From sequence record NC_054892.1: a stretch of DNA of 48,939 nt. One strand, written 5' to 3'. Positions within the stretch are counted from its first letter, which is position 1, and every line of letters starts with the position of its first letter. The position numbers were made by a program, and so were the translations under genes. Below, piece after piece: positions 311 to 43,224 of this stretch. This DNA is from Escherichia phage vB_EcoS_PHB17. The notes beneath the pieces are model-generated. The model was not told where the DNA came from, did no database searches, and saw nothing but the letters and a program-made list of their open reading frames with translations.

Positions 311-490
311 AAACTCCGCAAATTAGGAACACGATTTGTAAAACACTGAAATGTAAGAAATTAAACGCTGAAACGCGTGCGCAAATTTAAAAAATCGAGT
401 TGTGAACAATCATAGACGATAAAAAACAGTTGACACGACATTAATCCACCAGCATAATGCAGCCGTCCCAACCAATCAGGAGGAAACACG

Positions 491-958
491 ATGCAAGAAC
501 AAACATTTAGCGACAATCTGCGTGGTGCGGCTCGCGCCTTGGCAAGTGGCGAGAAGGATAAAATCGTTATCCCATCCGGCGTAATTGAAATGGTTCTGGC
601 GGGCAAGAGCGCGGCTAAAAATCCAGCAAGCTATATCCGCACGACGATGAACCGAGTGCCGGAGGTGAAAGCTGTCGGCTCAATCAAGATCAAGAAAAGC
701 TATTGTGAGGATGAGGATAGCGATCACTACGGAAGTGACATTTACACACTTACGATTGTAAAAGGCGGTCGCAAAACGGTTTACACAAAGGCAGACGTTG
801 AGCGCATCAAGGCGCAAGCGGTAAGCAAGGCGGTTGAGCGATTCTTAACGCTATCCCCTAGCCTGGCAAACTACACACAAGAAGAATACGCCACTGTTGC
901 AAAAGTAATGGGCGAGATTAACGCGCTCGTTAAGGTTAACTTTGAGGTCGAGGAGTAA
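491..958 (+). CDS. hypothetical early protein (155 aa)
   Basis: ORF with AGGAGG about 8 nt upstream of ATG; first gene after the noncoding hub. Confidence 0.6.
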   Translation: MQEQTFSDNLRGAARALASGEKDKIVIPSGVIEMVLAGKSAAKNPASYIRTTMNRVPEVKAVGSIKIKKSYCEDEDSDHYGSDIYTLTIVKGGRKTVYTKADVERIKAQAVSKAVERFLTLSPSLANYTQEEYATVAKVMGEINALVKVNFEVEE

Positions 959-963
959 TCACA

Positions 964-1209
964 ATGCAATACATGAAAATCAAGCAAATGACAGACGACG
1001 CAATCAAAACCGCCTCCGCAGAGGGGAGGCTATTCAGGCTCGTAAGGTCGAATAAATCAATGCCCCTGAAAGTAAAGCCATTCGAATTGCATAAACCTGG
1101 ATGTAAATGCACAAGCGATGGTGGCGATTATTGGCCTGACTGCATGAATACCATCAACATTGCAAGGGCGGCGATTAAGAAAGGTAATTTATTCCTGGGG
1201 GTGAAGTAA
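964..1209 (+). CDS. hypothetical protein (81 aa)
   Basis: ORF; GAGGAG upstream; tightly packed after previous gene. Confidence 0.5.
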   Translation: MQYMKIKQMTDDAIKTASAEGRLFRLVRSNKSMPLKVKPFELHKPGCKCTSDGGDYWPDCMNTINIARAAIKKGNLFLGVK

Positions 1210-1529
1210 TGCAAAAGTTCAAAGTGGTGTTAGGCGCAATCATGGTTGTTGCTGGCGTCGTCATGCTGACTGGTTGCGACGGCGACACCAGGACGCCGGA
1301 ACATGCACGCATCAAAATGCAGGTTGAAACGGGAGCAGATCACAACCGCGTTAGCGTGCGCAAGTTGACAGAGTTTGCTGACGGCCTGGCGTACAACGAC
1401 AAGCGCGGGATTTACCTTATCACCGATAAGCAAACGGGCAAGGAATACATTGGCGTTTCTGGTGTCGGTATCACCGAAACAGGATCGCACGCTTGCGGAA
1501 AGGGTTGCACACGCCAGGATGAGCGATAG
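1209..1529 (+). CDS. putative lipoprotein (106 aa)
   Basis: N-terminal hydrophobic segment ending in lipobox LTGC followed by Asp at +2 (CDGD); start overlaps previous stop. Confidence 0.6.
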   Translation: MQKFKVVLGAIMVVAGVVMLTGCDGDTRTPEHARIKMQVETGADHNRVSVRKLTEFADGLAYNDKRGIYLITDKQTGKEYIGVSGVGITETGSHACGKGCTRQDER

Positions 1530-1545
1530 CACTTTTTGTTAAAAC
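1526..1545 (+). promoter_or_regulatory. conserved motif copy ATAGCACTTTTTGTTAAAAC
   Basis: Begins on TAG stop of lipoprotein gene; followed by hairpin GGGGTT..AACCCC containing TATAGT. Confidence 0.5.
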
Positions 1546-25054: not shown

Positions 25055-28000
25055 ATGACAAAAAATGTGATAAGCGGCAGTAAGGGCGGCTCCTCAAAAC
25101 CTTACACACCAAAGGAAATGGAAGATAACCTAATCTCCATTAACAAAATCAAAGTTTTGTTGGCTGTTTCAGATGGTGAGTGCGATCCTAATTTCTCACT
25201 GAAAGATCTGTATTTGAATGATGTTCCGGTGATGAATGAGGATGGTTCATTGAACTATCAAGGCGTGACCGCAGAGTTTCGACCAGGCACGCAAGATCAG
25301 CCATATATCCAGGGTTTCACAGACACAGCAAGCGAAATAACCGTTGCGCGTGACATTACCACTACAACGCCTTTTGTAATTCCAGTTACAAACCGCAACC
25401 TTTCTGCAATCAGAATTAAAATGCTGATGCCGCAGGGCGTTAAGGTTGAGAGTAACGGCGACCGCGTAGGCGTTGAAGTAAAATACAAAGTTGAAATGGC
25501 TGTTGATGGCGGAAGCTATAAAGAAGTTTTAGCCGACACATTCACAGGCAAAACAACAAGCGGATATGATCGCAGTCGTCGAATTGACTTACCAGAATTC
25601 AACGATCAAGTTTTGTTGCGCGTTAGTCGTGTAACGCCTGACAGCACAACTGATCGCGTTGTTGATGGAATCAGGATTCAGAGCTATGCGGAAGTAATCG
25701 ACGCGAAGTTTCGTTATCCGCTGACTGGTTTAGTTTACGTTGAATTTGATTCCGAGCTATTCCCGAATCAGATCCCTAACATTTCTATCAAGAAGAAATG
25801 GAAGATAATCAACGTTCCGAGCAACTACGATCCAGAATCGCGCACGTATAGCGGCACATGGAATGGCACATGGAAAAAGGCATGGACAAACAACCCTGCT
25901 TTCATTCTGTATGATTTGATCACCAATCAGCGCTATGGACTAGATCAAAGGGAGTTGGGAATTCCACTGGACAAGTGGAGCATTTACGAGGCCGCGCAGT
26001 ATTGCGATCAGATGGTTCCAGATGGAAAGGGCGGAACGGAACCGCGCTACCTTTGCGACGTTGTTATTCAGAGCCAGATTGAAGCCTATCAGCTTGTTCG
26101 CGACATTTGCTCTATATTCCGTGGCATGACGTTTTGGAACGGCGAAAGCCTTTCGATTGTGGTTGATAGACCGCGCGAGCCGTCTTACATCTTCACAAAC
26201 GACAACGTTGTTAATGGTGATTTTAGCTACACTTTCGCCAGCGAAAAGACGATGTACACGCAATGCAACGTGACATTCGACGATGAGCAAAACATGTACC
26301 AACAGGACGTTGAGGGCGTTTTTGATGTAGAGGCTTCATTACGTTTCGGGCATAACCCAACGAGCATTACAGCCATTGGATGCACTCGACGCAGCGAGGC
26401 AAACCGCCGTGGGCGCTGGATTCTGAAAACCAACTTGCGCAGCACAACGGTTAACTTTGCAACTGGTCTGGAGGGCATGATCCCATCTATCGGGGATGTG
26501 ATCGCGATTGCGGATAACTTCTGGAGCAGCAACTTAACGCTGAATTTATCAGGTCGTTTAATGGAGGTTTCCGGTTTACAGGTTTTCGTTCCGTTTAAGG
26601 TTGATGCACGCGCTGGTGATTTCATCGTGGTTAACAAGCCAGATGGCAAGCCAGTAAAGCGCACCATATCAAGGGTTAGTGCAGACGGTAAAACGTTAGA
26701 GTTAAACGTTGGGTTTGGTTTTGACGTTCAGCCTGACACCGTGTTTGCTATCGACCGCACTGATATTGCATTGCAACAGTATGTTGTAACAACCATCACC
26801 AGGGGCGATAACGAGGAGGAATTCACCTACTCTATAACGGCTGTTGAATACGATCCGAACAAGTACGATGAAATTGATTATGGCGTGAACATTGACGACC
26901 GCCCAACAAGCATTGTGCAACCTGACGTTATGGCAGCACCGGAAAACGTTGTTGTGTCGTCATACTCGCGAATCGTGCAGGGCTTGAGCGTTGAAACGAT
27001 GCACATTAGTTGGGATAAAGTGCCTTACGCATCGCTGTATGAGGTGCAATGGCGCAAGGATAATGGCAACTGGCATAACGTACCGCAGACAGCCAACAAG
27101 GAAACAGAGGTTGAAGGTATTTATGCGGGGGTTTATCACGTTCGCGTGCGTTCAGTTTCGGCGGCTGGTTCGGCTTCTCCCTGGTCTGCGATTGTCACCG
27201 CTTCTCTGACTGGTAAAGTTGGCGAGCCTGGCAAACCGATAAACCTTACGGCGTCAGATAATGAGGTTTTCGGAATTCGTATTAAATGGGGTATGCCAGA
27301 AGGTGCAACCGATACGGCTTACGTTGAATTGCAGCAAGCGCCTAATGCTGGTGATTTACCAGCAGAAGATCAAGCGTCGCTGTTGTCTTTGATTCCGTAC
27401 CCACAGCACGAATATTGGCACAGCATTTTGCCAGCAGGTTTTATCAACTGGTATCGTGTGCGATCTGTTGACAAAATCGGCAACGTTTCCGGCTGGACTG
27501 ACTTTGTGCGCGGAATGGCTTCAACTGAGCTTGATGATATTTTAGGCGATATTTTAGACGATATCTGGAATTCACCAGGCGGCGAGGCAATCAAGGAAAG
27601 CGCGATTGATAACGCGAACAAGATCAAGGATCAGGCGCAAAGCATCATTCATAACGCGCTCGCAAATGATGCGGATATTAAATGGACGCGCAAAGAGAAC
27701 GGCAAGCGTAAAGCGGAATATGGTCACGCACTGGAGTTAATCGCCAATGAAACAGAGGCGCGAGTAACAGCCATTGAGGAACTAAAGGCAAGCATTGGTG
27801 ACGATATTCAAGGACAGATCACAACCATCAAGGAAGCGGTTGCAAATGAGGAGGAGGCGCGAGTAAAAGCAGTTCAAAACCTTGATGCGAAATTTACGAA
27901 AGAGGTTGAAGGTGTTAGGACTGAAACCGCCGCCAGTATCGGCAGGGTTGACCAGGCGATCACGAATGAAGCAGAGGCAAGGGCGCAAGCCGTTAGCTCA

Positions 28001-28615
28001 CTTGATTCTAAATTCACTGGACAAATCAACGGCGTTAAGCAAGATTTGACGTCTAACATTAGCCGAGTGGATCAGGCAATTGCGAATGAGGCTAGCGCGA
28101 GGGCTTCCGCTGACACGGCGTTAAGCACGCGAGTTGGCAACGCAGAAAGCGCGATTTCACAAAAACTTGATTCATGGATCACTGCGAGCGGAGCGGGTGC
28201 GCAATATGCGTTGAAATTGGGATTGACTTACCAGGGCAAACAGTACGATGCGGGAATGGTGCTATCACTGACCGGAAGCGGGAGCGCTGTAAAATCACAA
28301 GTGCTTTTCGATGCGGCGCGGTTCGGCATTCTAACCAAAGTCGGCGGGGCTTACTCATTGCCTTTCGTGGTTGAAAACAACCAAGTATTCATTAACAGTT
28401 TGTTGGTGAAAAACGGCTCAATCACTAACGCTATGATTGGTAACGAGATCAAATCAAACAACTATGTTGCAGGGCAAACCGGATGGAGGCTGGATAAAAA
28501 CGGCAACCTGGAAATCAACGGCAAGACCGGAACCGGACGCTTGACCATCAACAACAACCTGATCCAGATTTATGACGCAAACAACAGATTGCGCGTAAGA
28601 ATGGGATTGTGGTAA
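25055..28615 (+). CDS. tail tip / central fiber protein (lambda J-like, 1186 aa)
   Basis: Very long ORF closing the M-L-K-I-J set; C-terminal coiled-coil repeats. Confidence 0.85.
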   Translation: MTKNVISGSKGGSSKPYTPKEMEDNLISINKIKVLLAVSDGECDPNFSLKDLYLNDVPVMNEDGSLNYQGVTAEFRPGTQDQPYIQGFTDTASEITVARDITTTTPFVIPVTNRNLSAIRIKMLMPQGVKVESNGDRVGVEVKYKVEMAVDGGSYKEVLADTFTGKTTSGYDRSRRIDLPEFNDQVLLRVSRVTPDSTTDRVVDGIRIQSYAEVIDAKFRYPLTGLVYVEFDSELFPNQIPNISIKKKWKIINVPSNYDPESRTYSGTWNGTWKKAWTNNPAFILYDLITNQRYGLDQRELGIPLDKWSIYEAAQYCDQMVPDGKGGTEPRYLCDVVIQSQIEAYQLVRDICSIFRGMTFWNGESLSIVVDRPREPSYIFTNDNVVNGDFSYTFASEKTMYTQCNVTFDDEQNMYQQDVEGVFDVEASLRFGHNPTSITAIGCTRRSEANRRGRWILKTNLRSTTVNFATGLEGMIPSIGDVIAIADNFWSSNLTLNLSGRLMEVSGLQVFVPFKVDARAGDFIVVNKPDGKPVKRTISRVSADGKTLELNVGFGFDVQPDTVFAIDRTDIALQQYVVTTITRGDNEEEFTYSITAVEYDPNKYDEIDYGVNIDDRPTSIVQPDVMAAPENVVVSSYSRIVQGLSVETMHISWDKVPYASLYEVQWRKDNGNWHNVPQTANKETEVEGIYAGVYHVRVRSVSAAGSASPWSAIVTASLTGKVGEPGKPINLTASDNEVFGIRIKWGMPEGATDTAYVELQQAPNAGDLPAEDQASLLSLIPYPQHEYWHSILPAGFINWYRVRSVDKIGNVSGWTDFVRGMASTELDDILGDILDDIWNSPGGEAIKESAIDNANKIKDQAQSIIHNALANDADIKWTRKENGKRKAEYGHALELIANETEARVTAIEELKASIGDDIQGQITTIKEAVANEEEARVKAVQNLDAKFTKEVEGVRTETAASIGRVDQAITNEAEARAQAVSSLDSKFTGQINGVKQDLTSNISRVDQAIANEASARASADTALSTRVGNAESAISQKLDSWITASGAGAQYALKLGLTYQGKQYDAGMVLSLTGSGSAVKSQVLFDAARFGILTKVGGAYSLPFVVENNQVFINSLLVKNGSITNAMIGNEIKSNNYVAGQTGWRLDKNGNLEINGKTGTGRLTINNNLIQIYDANNRLRVRMGLW

Positions 28616-28617
28616 TT

Positions 28618-28648
28618 AAAAAGGCTCCCTATTGGGAGCCTTTCTTTT
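28618..28648. terminator. bidirectional rho-independent terminator
   Basis: AAAGGCTCCC-TATT-GGGAGCCTTT with A and T tracts; between convergent J-like gene and minus-strand operon. Confidence 0.8.
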
Positions 28649-28973
28649 ATTCAACAATAAAGTCTTTCTGTTGATATCGTCCAGGTTGACGCGCCAGCAT
28701 GTTCATTTCCAAGCCGCCTTTAACAAACTTCATTGTTATATCGTACTTGTTTTTATCCTTAAAGCACATCACAGCAACGTTTTTCTTTACGTGGCGAGTG
28801 AAATAAAAGTGAGAGGATTCCAGAATATCAATCTTCTTGTTTTCGCAATCAAGTTTGAATCTTGTCTCACCAGTCAGAGAGAGTCGCGCAGCCGGAACGG
28901 GAAAACCGATTTGCATATTAAGAGCAAGCGCGTTTGAGGCAAAGATCATTAAAGCAAGTGCAAACCATTTCAT
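28647..28973 (-). CDS. small secreted protein with signal peptide (108 aa)
   Basis: Internal start MKWFALALMIFASNALA with perfect AAGGAG RBS; the longer track ORF extends upstream without RBS. Confidence 0.55.
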   Translation of the reverse strand: MKWFALALMIFASNALALNMQIGFPVPAARLSLTGETRFKLDCENKKIDILESSHFYFTRHVKKNVAVMCFKDKNKYDITMKFVKGGLEMNMLARQPGRYQQKDFIVE

Positions 28974-28983
28974 AATATTCTCC

Positions 28984-29634
28984 TTAGTTGTAACCCTGAA
29001 ATTTAGCCAGTGGCAAACGGAAGTTACCGCGCCCGTTAAACACTTCCGTGAATTTCTTTTGATACTTTGACACATAACCAAACTGGATTTGCGATCCCGT
29101 CCACTTAACACAAAGACCTGAATAACCAACAACAGTTCCGTCGTCCGAAAGGTTGCCAGGGCATTGATTCCAAAGGAAAAACGGATTAAAGCCAGGAGCA
29201 AGACTGTACACGTTAGCATTCAGATCGTAATTCTGAGCAATATCAACATATTTCAGAATTCGCGGCATTGTGGAGGCGCTTTTTGCTGACCATATCATTT
29301 TCCCTGTAGAGTCGAAAACATCAAGAAAGCCAGTCTCAATAGATTTGTTTCTTGTCGTCCTGATAACTCTAAAAGTTCCAGGCTTAAACATGCTTGCACC
29401 AGGGAAACACCACGCATTATTAGTGGTTAACTGAATCCAATATAGGCAATCAACGCGCTTACTCCAGTTAAAGGCGGTGAAACCCAATTCGCTTAAATTT
29501 CCGAATGGTGTGGTTTGGTTATACGCTCCAACCTCAACAATCCCAGGGGTATCAACCGCATCAAAAAGCGTATGCACCTGATCGGAGTTAATAATTGTTG
29601 AGCCGTCATTGTTTAACACTTCAAAACCAGACAT
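28984..29634 (-). CDS. hypothetical protein, possible receptor-binding / tail accessory (216 aa)
   Basis: ORF with GAGGTG RBS; convergent with the J-like gene. Confidence 0.45.
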   Translation of the reverse strand: MSGFEVLNNDGSTIINSDQVHTLFDAVDTPGIVEVGAYNQTTPFGNLSELGFTAFNWSKRVDCLYWIQLTTNNAWCFPGASMFKPGTFRVIRTTRNKSIETGFLDVFDSTGKMIWSAKSASTMPRILKYVDIAQNYDLNANVYSLAPGFNPFFLWNQCPGNLSDDGTVVGYSGLCVKWTGSQIQFGYVSKYQKKFTEVFNGRGNFRLPLAKFQGYN

Positions 29635-29643
29635 TAGATCACC

Positions 29644-29955
29644 TCAAATAAATTGATAAACCTCAATTGTTAATTTCTCCGCGTACAATGTATTTCCAGT
29701 CGGAAGGTAAATAACATCAACGCCGTTTGTTTTTGTCTTTGCATAAAACTGAATAAAACCCAATCCACCGGAGGAATCAGTTGCAGTTATCGCAGCAAAT
29801 GAATTGTTTCCGTTTATACCGTTCACGGCGAATGACGACACGTTTTGCCCTTTCGGAAATGTGATCGTGTACTTCCCGACAAATTTTACCGTGTAATCAC
29901 CGAGATCGACAATCAAGTTGCCTGACGCATCCCAGGCTTGCAAACCCGCTGGCAT
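29644..29955 (-). CDS. hypothetical protein, possible tail accessory (103 aa)
   Basis: ORF with AGGAGG RBS; first gene of the minus operon, downstream of a motif copy. Confidence 0.45.
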   Translation of the reverse strand: MPAGLQAWDASGNLIVDLGDYTVKFVGKYTITFPKGQNVSSFAVNGINGNNSFAAITATDSSGGLGFIQFYAKTKTNGVDVIYLPTGNTLYAEKLTIEVYQFI

Positions 29956-42346: not shown

Positions 42347-42841
42347 ATGACGATAAAAACAAGGATAACGGCGGGGGCGTTTGGTGTAGCCCTCGCTTTG
42401 ACTTCCCCACTCCTGGAGGAGATAGAGGGGATCAAGTATAAGCCGTACAAAGACATTGCTGGAATCTGGACGGTTTGCGCTGGCATTACCGGAAAGGATG
42501 TTATTTTAGGCAAGACGTACACGCAGCGAGAATGCGATCAGCTACTGCAAAAGCACATCAAGATCGCAAAGGATGAGGTTGATAAACGCGTGAAGGTTGA
42601 CATTCCAGACACCATGCGAGCGGCTCTATACTCATTCACCTACAACGCCGGAACCGGAGCGTTTCGCAAGTCAACAATGCTTAAACTGATTAACCAGGGG
42701 CGGCTATATGAGGCGTGCGATCAGCTATGGAACTGGACATATTTCACCAACCCGAAAACAGGCCGCAAAGAGAAATCTAAAGGTTTGCAAAATCGGCGTG
42801 CGGTAGAATTCAAATATTGCGTTAAGGATCTGAAACGATGA
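42347..42841 (+). CDS. endolysin, lysozyme-type with SAR-like N-terminus (164 aa)
   Basis: [25 protein letters not shown] lysozyme core (Glu/Asp/Thr catalytic pattern) preceded by weakly hydrophobic N-terminal segment. Confidence 0.85.
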
Positions 42842-43224
42842 AACGATTAGCGGCAATCATGATGGTTATGGCTCTTTCCGGTTGTTCAGCGTCAAGCGCT
42901 CTGACTGGTTTGATTGGCAGTAAGCCGGAAGTAACAGCCCAAGCCGGAGCGGAAAACATAAAGCAAACCGTGGGCGTGACAGCAAAGCAGGACACCAGCA
43001 GCAAGCAGGAAACCAGCTTTGAAAAGTCTAACGTTGGAAAGGTTGACACCTCAAACAAAAAGAAGGTGAGCGCCTCCAGCATTCAAGCTGAAACAATCAC
43101 GGCGGAAAGGATAGAGATCAGGAATACAGATAGCGGGTTAGATTGGAAGGTTAGCGCGTTATTCTTTGCTGTAATTTCTATCGTGCTGTTTCTCATCGGA
43201 TACAAAAGCAAGAAAGGAGCCTAA
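42838..43224 (+). CDS. unimolecular spanin (128 aa)
   Basis: Lipobox ALSGC at N-terminus plus C-terminal transmembrane helix, the arrangement known from phage T1. Confidence 0.8.

What the first reader, a model, noticed from the sequence alone, without database searches (positions are those of the whole stretch)
1209..1529. Early lipoprotein with an inner-membrane retention signal
The protein has a lipobox (LTGC) and Asp at position +2 after the lipidated Cys, which in E. coli retains lipoproteins in the inner membrane. An early-expressed phage lipoprotein is a plausible superinfection-exclusion or receptor-interfering factor.
Basis: partly seen in the sequence, partly recalled or inferred. 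Interest (0 to 1): 0.45.

Follow-up and report, generated by a model that had tools for sequence, protein, structure and literature searches.

The report
Conserved early phage periplasmic lipoprotein
A real gene in the first operon of a T1-like phage encodes a small lipoprotein that is predicted to stay on the host's inner membrane and display an unusually conserved, uncharacterised domain in the periplasm; it belongs to a widespread phage-only family of unknown function and is unlikely to be a receptor blocker.

Summary
ORF 1209..1529 (+) encodes a 106-aa protein with a textbook lipoprotein signal (K3/K5, hydrophobic core, L-T-G-C23) and Asp24 at +2. It is under purifying selection and is the last gene of the only left-arm operon driven by a near-consensus sigma-70 promoter. 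The window is a Changchunvirus-like Drexlerviridae genome.

The protein belongs to an unannotated, phage-restricted family: at least 462 clusters at 50% identity, with no Pfam, PDB or fold relative. About 90% of members are lipoproteins and about 5% carry an uncleaved TM anchor instead. A variable linker of about 24 residues precedes a 60-residue all-beta domain. About 24 of those positions are at least 90% conserved, and the chain ends in a near-invariant D-E-R. Tail cysteines occur only in pairs, which implies a disulfide and export.

Asp+2 occurs in 12 of 14 Enterobacterales-associated members and 1 of 9 others, in at least three branches. That supports host-adapted inner-membrane retention.

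Receptor masking is disfavoured. The gene is never next to receptor-binding genes, and it is about 50-60% identical in phages with unrelated hosts and receptors. The receptor locus has its own secreted protein.

Function is unresolved. My best guess is a post-adsorption, inner-membrane-level envelope effector acting on a conserved periplasmic target.

The parts
430..458 (+). Near-consensus sigma-70 promoter (TTGACA-17-CATAAT, 11 of 12 matches) upstream of the first operon
   Evidence: It is the only promoter in the left arm with canonical geometry. The downstream units use a different repeated motif.
491..958 (+). First gene of the operon, 155 aa, DUF7174 / phrog_4841, function unknown
964..1209 (+). 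Second gene, 81 aa, no family match. Its stop codon overlaps the lipoprotein start codon (TAATG).
   Evidence: The W011D homologue is annotated 'putative apolipoprotein N-acyltransferase', which no search supports.
1197..1204 (+). Shine-Dalgarno-like GGGGGTGA, ending 4 nt upstream of the ATG
   Evidence: Read directly from the sequence
1209..1529 (+). The lipoprotein gene (106 codons plus TAG)
1209..1277 (+). Type II signal peptide, residues 1-23. The n-region holds K3/K5, the h-region is V6-M19, and the lipobox L20-T21-G22-C23 lies at 1266-1277, with the lipidated Cys codon at 1275-1277.
   Evidence: In the family the -1 residue is G, A or S, and the -3 residue is mostly L.
1278..1280 (+). 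Asp24 (+2), the enterobacterial Lol-avoidance (inner-membrane retention) residue
1278..1346 (+). Linker, residues 24-46. It is variable in sequence and modelled with low confidence. In the family the linker has a median length of 24 residues (range 15-53).
1347..1526 (+). Conserved domain, residues 47-106. It is predicted as five beta strands (48-57, 65-73, 79-83, 87-97, 100-105). D58, S84 and G87 are invariant, and the C-terminal D104-E105-R106 is near-invariant.
1494..1508 (+). C96-G-K-G-C100, a predicted disulfide-stapled turn of the C-terminal hairpin
   Evidence: the number of tail Cys across the family is 0 in 216 sequences, 2 in 54 and 1 in one..
1528..1544 (+). First copy of the repeated 17-mer AGCACTTTTTGTTAAAA. 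It overlaps the TAG stop codon and marks the start of the next transcription unit.

Best explanation
**What it is.** The gene makes an exported lipoprotein from the phage's first, host-RNA-polymerase-driven operon.

**Localisation (inferred).** After Sec export and lipidation at Cys23, Asp+2 keeps it in the outer leaflet of the inner membrane of enterobacterial hosts. A flexible tether of about 23 residues then holds a compact, disulfide-stapled all-beta domain of 60 residues in the periplasm.

**Target (inferred).** The domain is nearly invariant across unrelated phages of Alpha-, Beta- and Gammaproteobacteria, and it travels as a stand-alone gene. It therefore most likely binds, or acts on, a universally conserved envelope component close to the inner membrane, not a phage-specific receptor.

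**Consequence (least certain).** The most likely effect is post-adsorption protection of the already infected cell. That means blocking further breaching of the wall or membrane, or DNA entry, by secondary phages. This is an Imm/Sp-, Ltp- or SieA-like stage of action reached through a new fold.

**Shown versus inferred.** The signal, the conservation, the phage restriction and the host correlation of Asp+2 are shown. Localisation, target and phenotype are inferred.
For: **Lipoprotein signal.** It is present here and in 164 of 182 members. Ten more members carry an uncleaved N-terminal TM anchor, which also tethers the domain to the inner membrane.

**Export.** Tail cysteines occur only in pairs (0 in 216 sequences, 2 in 54, 1 in one), consistent with a periplasmic disulfide.

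**Asp+2 and host.**
- Asp+2 occurs in 12 of 14 Enterobacterales-linked members and 1 of 9 others (nominal Fisher p = 7e-4).
- It falls in at least 3 branches of a domain-only tree.
- The Asp+2 rule for E. coli and other Enterobacteriaceae is set out in PMC6469965.

**Early expression.**
- A consensus sigma-70 promoter lies at 430-458.
- The operon lacks the phage-specific 17-mer promoter motif that precedes later units.
- Homologues in temperate phages lie in early operons: the nin region, recombination modules and the region upstream of xis/int.

**Accessory, stand-alone gene.**
- It is found in 33 of 50,697 phage records.
- It has no conserved neighbour.
- All three bacterial-genome copies inspected are in prophages.

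**Constraint.** About 24 of the 60 domain positions are at least 90% conserved over 271 sequences.

**Precedent.** Membrane-level exclusion proteins are known: HK97 gp15, TP-J34 Ltp (a lipoprotein) and P22 SieA (PMC10461980).
Against: - No experiment, homologue of known function or structural relative ties the domain to exclusion.
- Known exclusion proteins are usually diverse and specific to a phage type. This family's near-invariance across phages with very different injection machines fits a host-takeover role or an enzyme at least as well.
- Residue +3 is Gly, not the canonical Asp, Glu or Gln, so the strength of retention is uncertain.
- The enterobacterial jumbo phages of Serratia and Pectobacterium have Asn at +2.
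- Many non-enteric members would probably go to the outer membrane, so the domain may work from either membrane.
- The structure model is only moderately confident (pLDDT 75.5, pTM 0.56).
Confidence: 0.35

Rival explanations
1. It is a host-takeover effector, not an exclusion factor. The tethered domain inhibits or re-programmes a conserved periplasmic enzyme or machine to optimise the phage's own cycle. Candidate targets are a peptidoglycan hydrolase or lytic transglycosylase, Tol-Pal, TonB, the Lol/Lpt/Bam pathways, or an envelope-stress sensor.
For: - The domain shows extreme, host-independent conservation with many invariant polar residues: R47, D58, Y62, R66, Y69, D73, E79, S84, E90, H94, K98 and D104-E105-R106.
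- It occurs in virulent and temperate phages of three proteobacterial classes.
- The conserved His and Gly-Lys lie in and next to the turn of the predicted C-terminal hairpin, which is stapled by a disulfide in the enteric clade. From my own knowledge, this loosely resembles the inhibitory loops of periplasmic lysozyme inhibitors such as Ivy. That resemblance was not tested.
Against: - No match to the MliC, Ivy or Pli families or to any Pfam or PDB entry.
- No target has been identified.
- The gene is sporadic even within Drexlerviridae, so it is dispensable.
Confidence: 0.3
2. It is a receptor-masking exclusion lipoprotein, like T1 Cor, T5 Llp or Rtp45, that blocks the phage's outer-membrane receptor.
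For: - It is a small phage lipoprotein, as are Cor and Llp.
- There is a weak match to the PHROG Cor family (E = 0.03), but it covers only the signal peptide and linker.
Against: - Asp+2 predicts inner-membrane retention.
- The gene is 27 kb from the receptor-binding locus, whereas Cor, Llp and Rtp45 genes sit beside their receptor-binding genes.
- It is conserved in phages with unrelated hosts and receptors.
- No sequence hit in the PDB copy searched.
- The receptor-binding locus has its own secreted 108-aa protein.
Confidence: 0.05
3. It is a minimal periplasmic enzyme: either a degenerate GIY-YIG-type nuclease or a hydrolase using invariant Ser84, His94 and an Asp.
For: - The motif R-G-I-Y-x10-Y-I-G-x-S with a His 14 residues after the YIG tyrosine mimics GIY-YIG. 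Matches are SegE_GIY-YIG in 20 of 35 members (best E = 0.014) and PADLOC UzuA (E = 1.3e-4).
- Public sources named two members 'GIY-YIG nuclease superfamily protein' and 'secreted trypsin-like serine protease'.
- S84 and D58 are 100% conserved, and H94 is 95% conserved.
Against: - The similarity covers only a 19-residue hairpin. hhalign of the family profile against the I-TevI catalytic domain gives 25% probability.
- Glu replaces the catalytic Arg, and the Glu/Asn-bearing helices are absent.
- The model is all-beta.
- Sixty residues is smaller than any known GIY-YIG or serine-hydrolase domain (my own knowledge).
- All Pfam scores are below the gathering threshold.
Confidence: 0.08
4. It is a lysis-module component: a spanin or an antiholin-like regulator of lysis timing.
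For: Spanins are phage lipoproteins. From my own knowledge, the T4 antiholin RI is an early, membrane-tethered periplasmic protein.
Against: - The phage already has an Rz-like spanin next to its endolysin, at 42838..43224 and 42347..42841.
- The protein lacks a C-terminal TM domain.
- The gene lies 41 kb from the lysis cassette.
- It is conserved across phages with different lysis systems.
Confidence: 0.03

Closest known systems
T1 Cor, T5 Llp and Rtp45 (receptor-blocking superinfection-exclusion proteins of T1-like and T5-like phages)
   Same: These are small exported phage proteins that act in the periplasm early in infection. Cor and Llp are lipoproteins. Cor and Rtp45 are the known exclusion factors of T1-like phages (PMC13164509; PMC12685063).
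   Different: - They act on outer-membrane receptors, are encoded next to the receptor-binding gene and track receptor specificity.
- This protein carries an inner-membrane signal and lies in the early arm.
- It is conserved across phages with unrelated receptors and shows no sequence or fold similarity to them.
TP-J34 Ltp, HK97 gp15, P22 SieA and T4 Imm/Sp (exclusion at the cytoplasmic-membrane or periplasmic stage)
   Same: These proteins are anchored at the cytoplasmic membrane and block DNA entry after adsorption. Ltp is itself a lipoprotein on the outer face of that membrane (PMC10461980). The details for T4 Imm and Sp are from my own knowledge.
   Different: - No homology to any of them.
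- Ltp is helical and from a Gram-positive phage. gp15, SieA and Imm are integral membrane proteins.
- Those proteins are narrowly distributed and specific to a phage type, whereas this family is broad and nearly invariant.
Enterobacterial inner-membrane lipoproteins with the Asp+2 Lol-avoidance signal
   Same: They share the Cys-Asp start of the mature protein with no adjacent basic residue (PMC6469965).
   Different: The canonical strong signal has Asp, Glu or Gln at +3. Here +3 is Gly and +4 is Asp. The protein is phage-encoded and its localisation is untested.
GIY-YIG nuclease domain (I-TevI, SegE, UzuA)
   Same: They share a GIY-x10-YIG beta-hairpin motif, with a His 14 residues after the second Tyr.
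   Different: Only 19 columns align (hhalign probability 25%). The catalytic Arg, Glu and Asn and the helices are absent. The protein is exported, and its domain is all-beta and only 60 residues long.
PHROG 16585 (unknown function)
   Same: This is the only library family that the protein matches significantly (E = 6e-16).
   Different: It carries no annotation. The family found here is far larger: 462 clusters at 50% identity.

Membership tests
Bacterial lipoproteins (signal peptidase II substrates) | Positively charged n-region, uncharged hydrophobic h-region, lipobox [LVI][ASTVI][GAS]C, and the Cys at positions 15-35 | tested here: met
   K3 and K5, V6-M19, and L-T-G-C23. The Cys column is 95% conserved, and the -1 residue is G, A or S.
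Bacterial lipoproteins (signal peptidase II substrates) | Diacylglyceryl modification and LspA cleavage (palmitate labelling, globomycin sensitivity) | not testable with these tools
   This needs an experiment.
Enterobacterial inner-membrane (Lol-avoidance) lipoproteins | Asp at +2 of the mature protein | tested here: met
   Asp24. Asp+2 occurs in 12 of 14 Enterobacterales-linked homologues and 1 of 9 others.
Enterobacterial inner-membrane (Lol-avoidance) lipoproteins | A strong signal: Asp, Glu or Gln at +3 and no adjacent basic residue | tested here: inconclusive
   Residue +3 is Gly and +4 is Asp, and the first basic residue is at +6. Enteric homologues have S, N, F, D, G, Q or R at +3.
Enterobacterial inner-membrane (Lol-avoidance) lipoproteins | Fractionates with the inner membrane | not testable with these tools
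   This needs membrane fractionation. The TM-anchored family variants give indirect support.
Cor / Llp / Rtp45 receptor-blocking exclusion proteins | Sequence or structural similarity to Cor, Llp or Rtp45 | tested here: not met
Cor / Llp / Rtp45 receptor-blocking exclusion proteins | Encoded beside the receptor-binding or tail-tip genes and co-varying with them | tested here: not met
   The gene lies at 1.2 kb and the gpJ/receptor-binding locus at 25-30 kb. Homologues are never next to tail genes.
Spanins (o-spanin or u-spanin) | Located in the lysis cassette. A u-spanin also has a C-terminal TM domain, and an o-spanin is embedded in or adjacent to the i-spanin gene. | tested here: not met
   The Rz-like spanin is 42838..43224, next to the endolysin. 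This protein has no C-terminal hydrophobic segment.
GIY-YIG nucleases | The GIY and YIG hairpin motifs | tested here: met
   G67-I-Y69 ... Y80-I-G82. The matches are weak: SegE, UzuA and I-TevI over 19 residues.
GIY-YIG nucleases | A catalytic Arg after YIG, a metal-binding Glu and an Asn, and an alpha/beta fold. The match should pass the Pfam threshold. | tested here: not met
   - Glu90 sits at the Arg position.
- The hhalign match is confined to the hairpin (probability 25%).
- The Pfam score is 13 bits against a cut-off of 25.
- The model is all-beta.
Periplasmic lysozyme inhibitors (Ivy, MliC/PliC, PliI, PliG) | A match to the family profiles or fold | tested here: not met
Membrane-level superinfection exclusion (functional class) | Expression blocks DNA entry of superinfecting phage without blocking adsorption | not testable with these tools
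   This needs plating, adsorption and potassium-efflux assays.

The most novel reading that the evidence does not exclude
This is the representative, in an Escherichia-phage lineage that can be grown in the laboratory, of a large, undescribed, phage-only family. The family has at least 462 clusters at 50% identity across Alpha-, Beta- and Gammaproteobacteria. Its members are membrane-tethered periplasmic effectors with a new 60-residue beta fold. The near-invariant surface (D58, S84, H94, the G-K turn and the C-terminal D-E-R) engages one universally conserved envelope component. That would be a new class of phage envelope effector, either an inhibitor of a core periplasmic machine or enzyme or an unusually small enzyme. 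It would not be a lineage-specific exclusion factor.
Probability: 0.3. Interest if true: 0.7.

Novelty: new variant of a known kind. Interest (0 to 1): 0.45.

Why it matters
**What is new here.** Phage lipoproteins studied so far are outer-membrane receptor blockers (Cor, Llp), spanins or virulence morons. A phage lipoprotein held deliberately on the inner membrane has no characterised counterpart in Gram-negative systems. This one carries a domain conserved at enzyme-like levels across hundreds of unrelated phages.

**What identifying the target would show.** It would reveal which conserved periplasmic step many phages find worth manipulating right after entry. It could also yield a small, portable inhibitor of a core envelope function.

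**A natural experiment on sorting.** The host-correlated switch of the +2 residue, and the occasional swap to a TM anchor, bear on lipoprotein sorting rules. PMC6469965 shows these rules are still debated outside Enterobacteriaceae.

**Testability.** The close orthologue bas09_0066 lies in phage PaulSarasin, an isolate grown on E. coli K-12.

Tried and rejected
**Library searches that found nothing useful**
- Pfam, NCBIfam and PADLOC gave nothing above threshold.
- PHROGs gave only an unannotated family.

**Solved and predicted structures**
- A single sequence and a 150-sequence profile against PDB sequences found nothing. The best hit was ribosomal protein L35Ae at E = 0.16.
- The AlphaFold-database library was not available.

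**Readings rejected**
- GIY-YIG nuclease: rejected after hhalign against I-TevI aligned only the hairpin.
- Conserved partner gene: rejected because an all-against-all BLAST of flanking genes across 13 loci found no shared neighbour beyond close relatives.
- Rhodococcus phage Finch tblastn hit: spurious (hhalign probability 10%).

**Other dead ends**
- DUF6440 and DUF6491: weak hits in 3-4 of 35 members (E > 0.04), not pursued.
- E. coli complete genomes: no DNA-level copy.
- Plasmid collection: one hit in a 339-kb Klebsiella record.
- The 'apolipoprotein N-acyltransferase' label on the upstream gene of W011D is unsupported.
- Literature searches found no description of this family.
Full report
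**1. The observation**

Its N-terminus, MQKFKVVLGAIMVVAGVVMLTGC, has two lysines, a 14-residue uncharged hydrophobic core and the lipobox L-T-G-C23. The next codon (GAC, 1278-1280) is Asp.

I scanned every possible start-to-stop ORF of at least 40 aa on both strands with a PROSITE-PS51257-style rule. Eight passed, but only two lie in credible genes. One is this ORF. The other is 42838..43224, an Rz-like spanin (phrog_1804, E = 1e-48) next to the endolysin.

The gene is real for four reasons:
- It has an SD-like GGGGGTGA at 1197-1204.
- Its start overlaps the stop of the upstream ORF (TAATG).
- Against phage W011D, 24 codons differ synonymously and 7 non-synonymously, with 26 of 34 base changes at third codon positions.
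- It has hundreds of homologues.

**2. Genomic setting**

The window is a T1-like siphophage genome. It is 82-84% identical at the DNA level to the Changchunvirus phages vB_EcoS_W011D and PaulSarasin/Bas09 (Drexlerviridae, Tempevirinae). Their orthologues, gp33 and bas09_0066, are 92-93% identical in protein sequence and annotated 'hypothetical protein'.

The gene is the third and last of an operon (491..958, 964..1209, 1209..1529). A near-consensus sigma-70 promoter precedes it: TTGACA-17-CATAAT at 430-458, 11 of 12 matches. The two upstream genes are DUF7174 and an orphan.

The following transcription units are built differently. Each begins with a 17-mer, AGCAC-N5-TGYTAAAA. It occurs 24 times in the window against 1.2 expected. 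In about 16 copies a TATAAT-like hexamer follows exactly 19 nt later. The lipoprotein operon has no such element upstream and ends at the first copy (1528). 'Early', probably immediate-early, is therefore a reasonable inference, but it has not been measured.

**3. The family**

A word-indexed search found 34 clusters, none with a Pfam domain. An exhaustive profile search of 1.84 billion representatives found far more: 462 at E <= 1e-3 and 335 at E <= 1e-10. Almost all are 90-125 aa single-domain proteins. A second profile search added members from named genomes: Agrobacterium, Alysiella, Pelomonas and Plesiomonas.

The architecture is constant.
- **Anchor.** Of 182 sequences, 164 have a lipoprotein signal. 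Ten have an uncleaved N-terminal TM helix instead, and two of those look like type IV prepilin leaders (G-F-T-x-x-E). Eight look truncated.
- **Linker.** It is variable, with a median of 24 residues (range 15-53).
- **Domain.** It is 60 residues long and exceptionally constrained over 271 aligned sequences:
  - D58, S84 and G87 are 100% conserved.
  - Y62, R66, D73, G82 and G85 are 99%.
  - E105 is 98%; A61 and Y69 are 97%.
  - H94, T76, G77 and G97 are 95-96%.
  - R47, R106 and D104 are 93-94%.
- **C-terminus.** The chain ends in D-E-R in 159 of 181 sequences.
- **Cysteines.** Those after His94 occur only in pairs: none in 216 sequences, two in 54, one in a single sequence. That is the signature of a disulfide, and therefore of an exported domain.

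**4. Structure**

AlphaFold2 on the mature domain with a 150-sequence alignment gave pLDDT 75.5 and pTM 0.56, with the core at 80-89. It predicts five beta strands (48-57, 65-73, 79-83, 87-97, 100-105). The C96-G-K-G-C100 segment forms the turn of the last hairpin, and the linker is disordered.

No solved or predicted structure resembles it convincingly:
- Foldseek against the PDB: best E = 1.6.
- BFVD: best E = 0.56.
- PDB sequences: nothing.

A recurrent weak signal comes from the hairpin R-G-I-Y-x10-Y-I-G-x-S:
- SegE_GIY-YIG matches 20 of 35 members, best E = 0.014.
- PADLOC UzuA matches at E = 1.3e-4.
- One source labels a member 'GIY-YIG nuclease superfamily protein'.

A profile comparison with the I-TevI catalytic domain aligns only those 19 residues, at 25% probability. 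I supplied that sequence from memory. The catalytic Arg, Glu and Asn are missing. The protein is not a GIY-YIG nuclease.

**5. Who carries it, and where**

Every context I inspected is a phage or a prophage, and always an early or accessory block of small genes:
- the left arm of three Drexlerviridae genera;
- the nin region of lambdoid phages of Hafnia and Enterobacter;
- small-ORF clusters of the jumbo phages BcepSauron (Burkholderia) and 2050HW/ParM-25 (Serratia, Pectobacterium);
- early operons of prophages in Agrobacterium, Pelomonas and metagenomic contigs;
- in one case, a moron-like slot between terminase and portal in an Alysiella prophage.

Other observations:
- No neighbouring gene is shared between lineages.
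- The gene is sporadic: 33 of 50,697 phage records carry it. None of the 33 records is named T1, though not all are listed.
- The single Gram-positive hit, Rhodococcus phage Finch, is spurious.

**6. Testing the inner-membrane inference**

[quoted passage not shown] It is usually followed by Asp, Glu or Gln and has no adjacent basic residue. Outside the enterics the rule is rarely used (PMC6469965).

I tabulated the +2 residue against host, using phages with recorded hosts and prophages found by a scan of 100,044 species genomes.
- **Enterobacterales-linked members.**
  - Twelve of 14 have Cys-Asp. These are linked to E. coli, Klebsiella, Enterobacter, Hafnia and Plesiomonas, and the count includes the window itself.
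  - The two exceptions are the near-identical proteins of the Serratia and Pectobacterium jumbo phages, which have Cys-Asn.
- **Other hosts.**
  - Only 1 of 9 lipoprotein-type members has Asp (Snodgrassella).
  - Gly dominates, often as C-G-P-[DE]-P-D.
- **Statistics.** The nominal Fisher p is 7e-4. The sequences are not independent, so this is indicative only.
- **Phylogeny.**
  - A domain-only neighbour-joining tree puts the enteric Asp+2 members in at least three separate branches.
  - The window's domain is as similar to the Burkholderia, Thiobacillus and Pelomonas members (61-62%) as to the other enteric lineages (57-60%).
  - The tree is short and has no bootstrap support.

Together with the TM-anchored variants, this supports selection for an inner-membrane tether in enteric hosts. 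Two caveats remain. Here +3 is Gly, not a canonical strong residue. And many non-enteric members may be sent to the outer membrane, so the domain may be able to act from either side of the periplasm.

**7. What it probably does**

Receptor masking can be set aside.
- The known exclusion proteins of T1-like and T5-like phages act on outer-membrane receptors. These are Cor on FhuA, Rtp45 on LptD and Llp on FhuA.
- They are encoded at the receptor-binding locus (PMC13164509; PMC12685063).
- This protein has the opposite sorting signal and lies 27 kb from that locus.
- It is conserved in phages with unrelated receptors.
- The receptor-binding locus of this phage lies downstream of gpJ on the minus strand. 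It has its own secreted 108-aa protein (28647..28973, phrog_25729) that travels with that module.

What remains is a stand-alone, early, membrane-tethered periplasmic domain that must recognise something common to Alpha-, Beta- and Gammaproteobacteria. I consider two readings about equally likely.
- **Post-adsorption protection of the infected cell (0.35).** The protein would block wall or membrane breaching or DNA entry. This is the stage at which T4 Imm/Sp, HK97 gp15, P22 SieA and the lipoprotein Ltp act (the T4 details are from my own knowledge).
- **A host-takeover effector (0.30).** The protein would inhibit or redirect a conserved periplasmic enzyme or machine.

The near-invariance of the domain is unusual for exclusion proteins, which keeps the second reading strong. 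An enzymatic role (invariant Ser and Asp, 95% His) is possible but unlikely for 60 residues (0.08). A lysis role is unlikely (0.03).

**8. Novelty and verdict**

Its localisation inference is strengthened. Its 'receptor-interfering' suggestion is not supported, and 'superinfection exclusion' remains an untested possibility.

The family is unannotated in Pfam, NCBIfam, PADLOC and PHROGs and has no structural relative. I found no paper describing it. It is a new variant of a known kind, the phage-encoded envelope lipoprotein. It is notable for its breadth, its conservation and its host-matched sorting signal.

Interest is moderate at 0.45. There is a clear, cheap experimental path through the orthologue in phage PaulSarasin, which grows on E. 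coli K-12. There is no functional evidence yet.

Noticed in passing
window 1528, 2032, 2353, 3640, 4610, 5606, 6912, 11057, 36466, 38961, 40128 (+) and 15371, 19106, 30029, 45408, 47459, 48437, 48790 (-), among 24 copies: A repeated intergenic 17-mer, AGCAC-N5-TGYTAAAA, contains the dyad TAGCA-N5-TGCTA. It has 24 copies against 1.2 expected. It usually starts at the stop codon of the upstream gene. In about 16 copies a TATAAT-like hexamer follows exactly 19 nt later, then a leader (often CATCGAAAC) and a ribosome-binding site. The distance from TTGYTA to the -10 hexamer is 22 nt, which is not canonical sigma-70 geometry. This may be a phage-specific promoter class or an activator site.
   Followed up: partly
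window 28647..29955 (-): Three minus-strand genes lie downstream of the gpJ-like tail-tip gene (25055..28615). Their products are 102 aa (29644..29955), 216 aa (28984..29634) and a 108-aa protein with a type I signal peptide (MKWFALALMIFASNALA..., 28647..28973, phrog_25729). This module resembles BananaBelafonte, KLB26 and NBD2, not the window's closest relatives W011D and Bas09. The small secreted protein is a candidate for the phage's true receptor-level exclusion factor.
   Followed up: partly
window 42347..43224 (+): This is part of the lysis cassette: an endolysin (42347..42841, phrog_7) followed by an Rz-like spanin lipoprotein (42838..43224, [16 protein letters not shown]|SASS, phrog_1804). 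The spanin has Ser at +2, the expected outer-membrane signal, in contrast to the Asp+2 of the early lipoprotein.
   Followed up: yes
window 964..1209 (+); L001 2258..2509: The 81-aa gene immediately upstream is translationally coupled to the lipoprotein gene. Its syntenic counterpart in W011D (RefSeq and GenBank) is annotated 'putative apolipoprotein N-acyltransferase'. No Pfam, PHROG or PADLOC match supports this, and the protein is about one-sixth the length of Lnt. The annotation looks spurious.
   Followed up: yes
family members P0097, P0152 (pilin-like); P0115, P0130, P0158, P0164, P0168; loci L026, L030, L031: A minority of homologues replace the lipobox with an uncleaved N-terminal TM helix. 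Two of them start with a type IV prepilin-like leader (MKNKSGFTIVEI..., MKRQIGFTFVEL...). This hints that in some hosts the domain is delivered through the pilin or pseudopilin pathway.
   Followed up: no
family members from non-enteric hosts (e.g. L005 2501..2779, L022, P0182, P0229): The start of the mature protein in most non-enteric members is a conserved motif, C-G-P-[DES]-P-D-x-P-M. In the 271-sequence alignment its two prolines are 67% and 53% conserved and the methionine 53%. The enteric clade has C-D-x-x-T-R-x-P instead. Its meaning is unknown: it could be a sorting signal, a protease site or part of the fold.
   Followed up: no
P0010, P0182 (public annotations): Two family members carry misleading public names: 'GIY-YIG nuclease superfamily protein' and 'secreted trypsin-like serine protease'. 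These probably stem from the GIY-x10-YIG hairpin and the G-x-S-G-x-G motif. Neither is supported by profile comparison.
   Followed up: yes
L024 (CABMGO010000003.1): One homologue lies on a 242-kb contig of a MAG labelled 'uncultured archaeon'. It has a typical bacterial lipobox (IAGC). This is probably a mis-binned or mislabelled bacterial or prophage contig.
   Followed up: no
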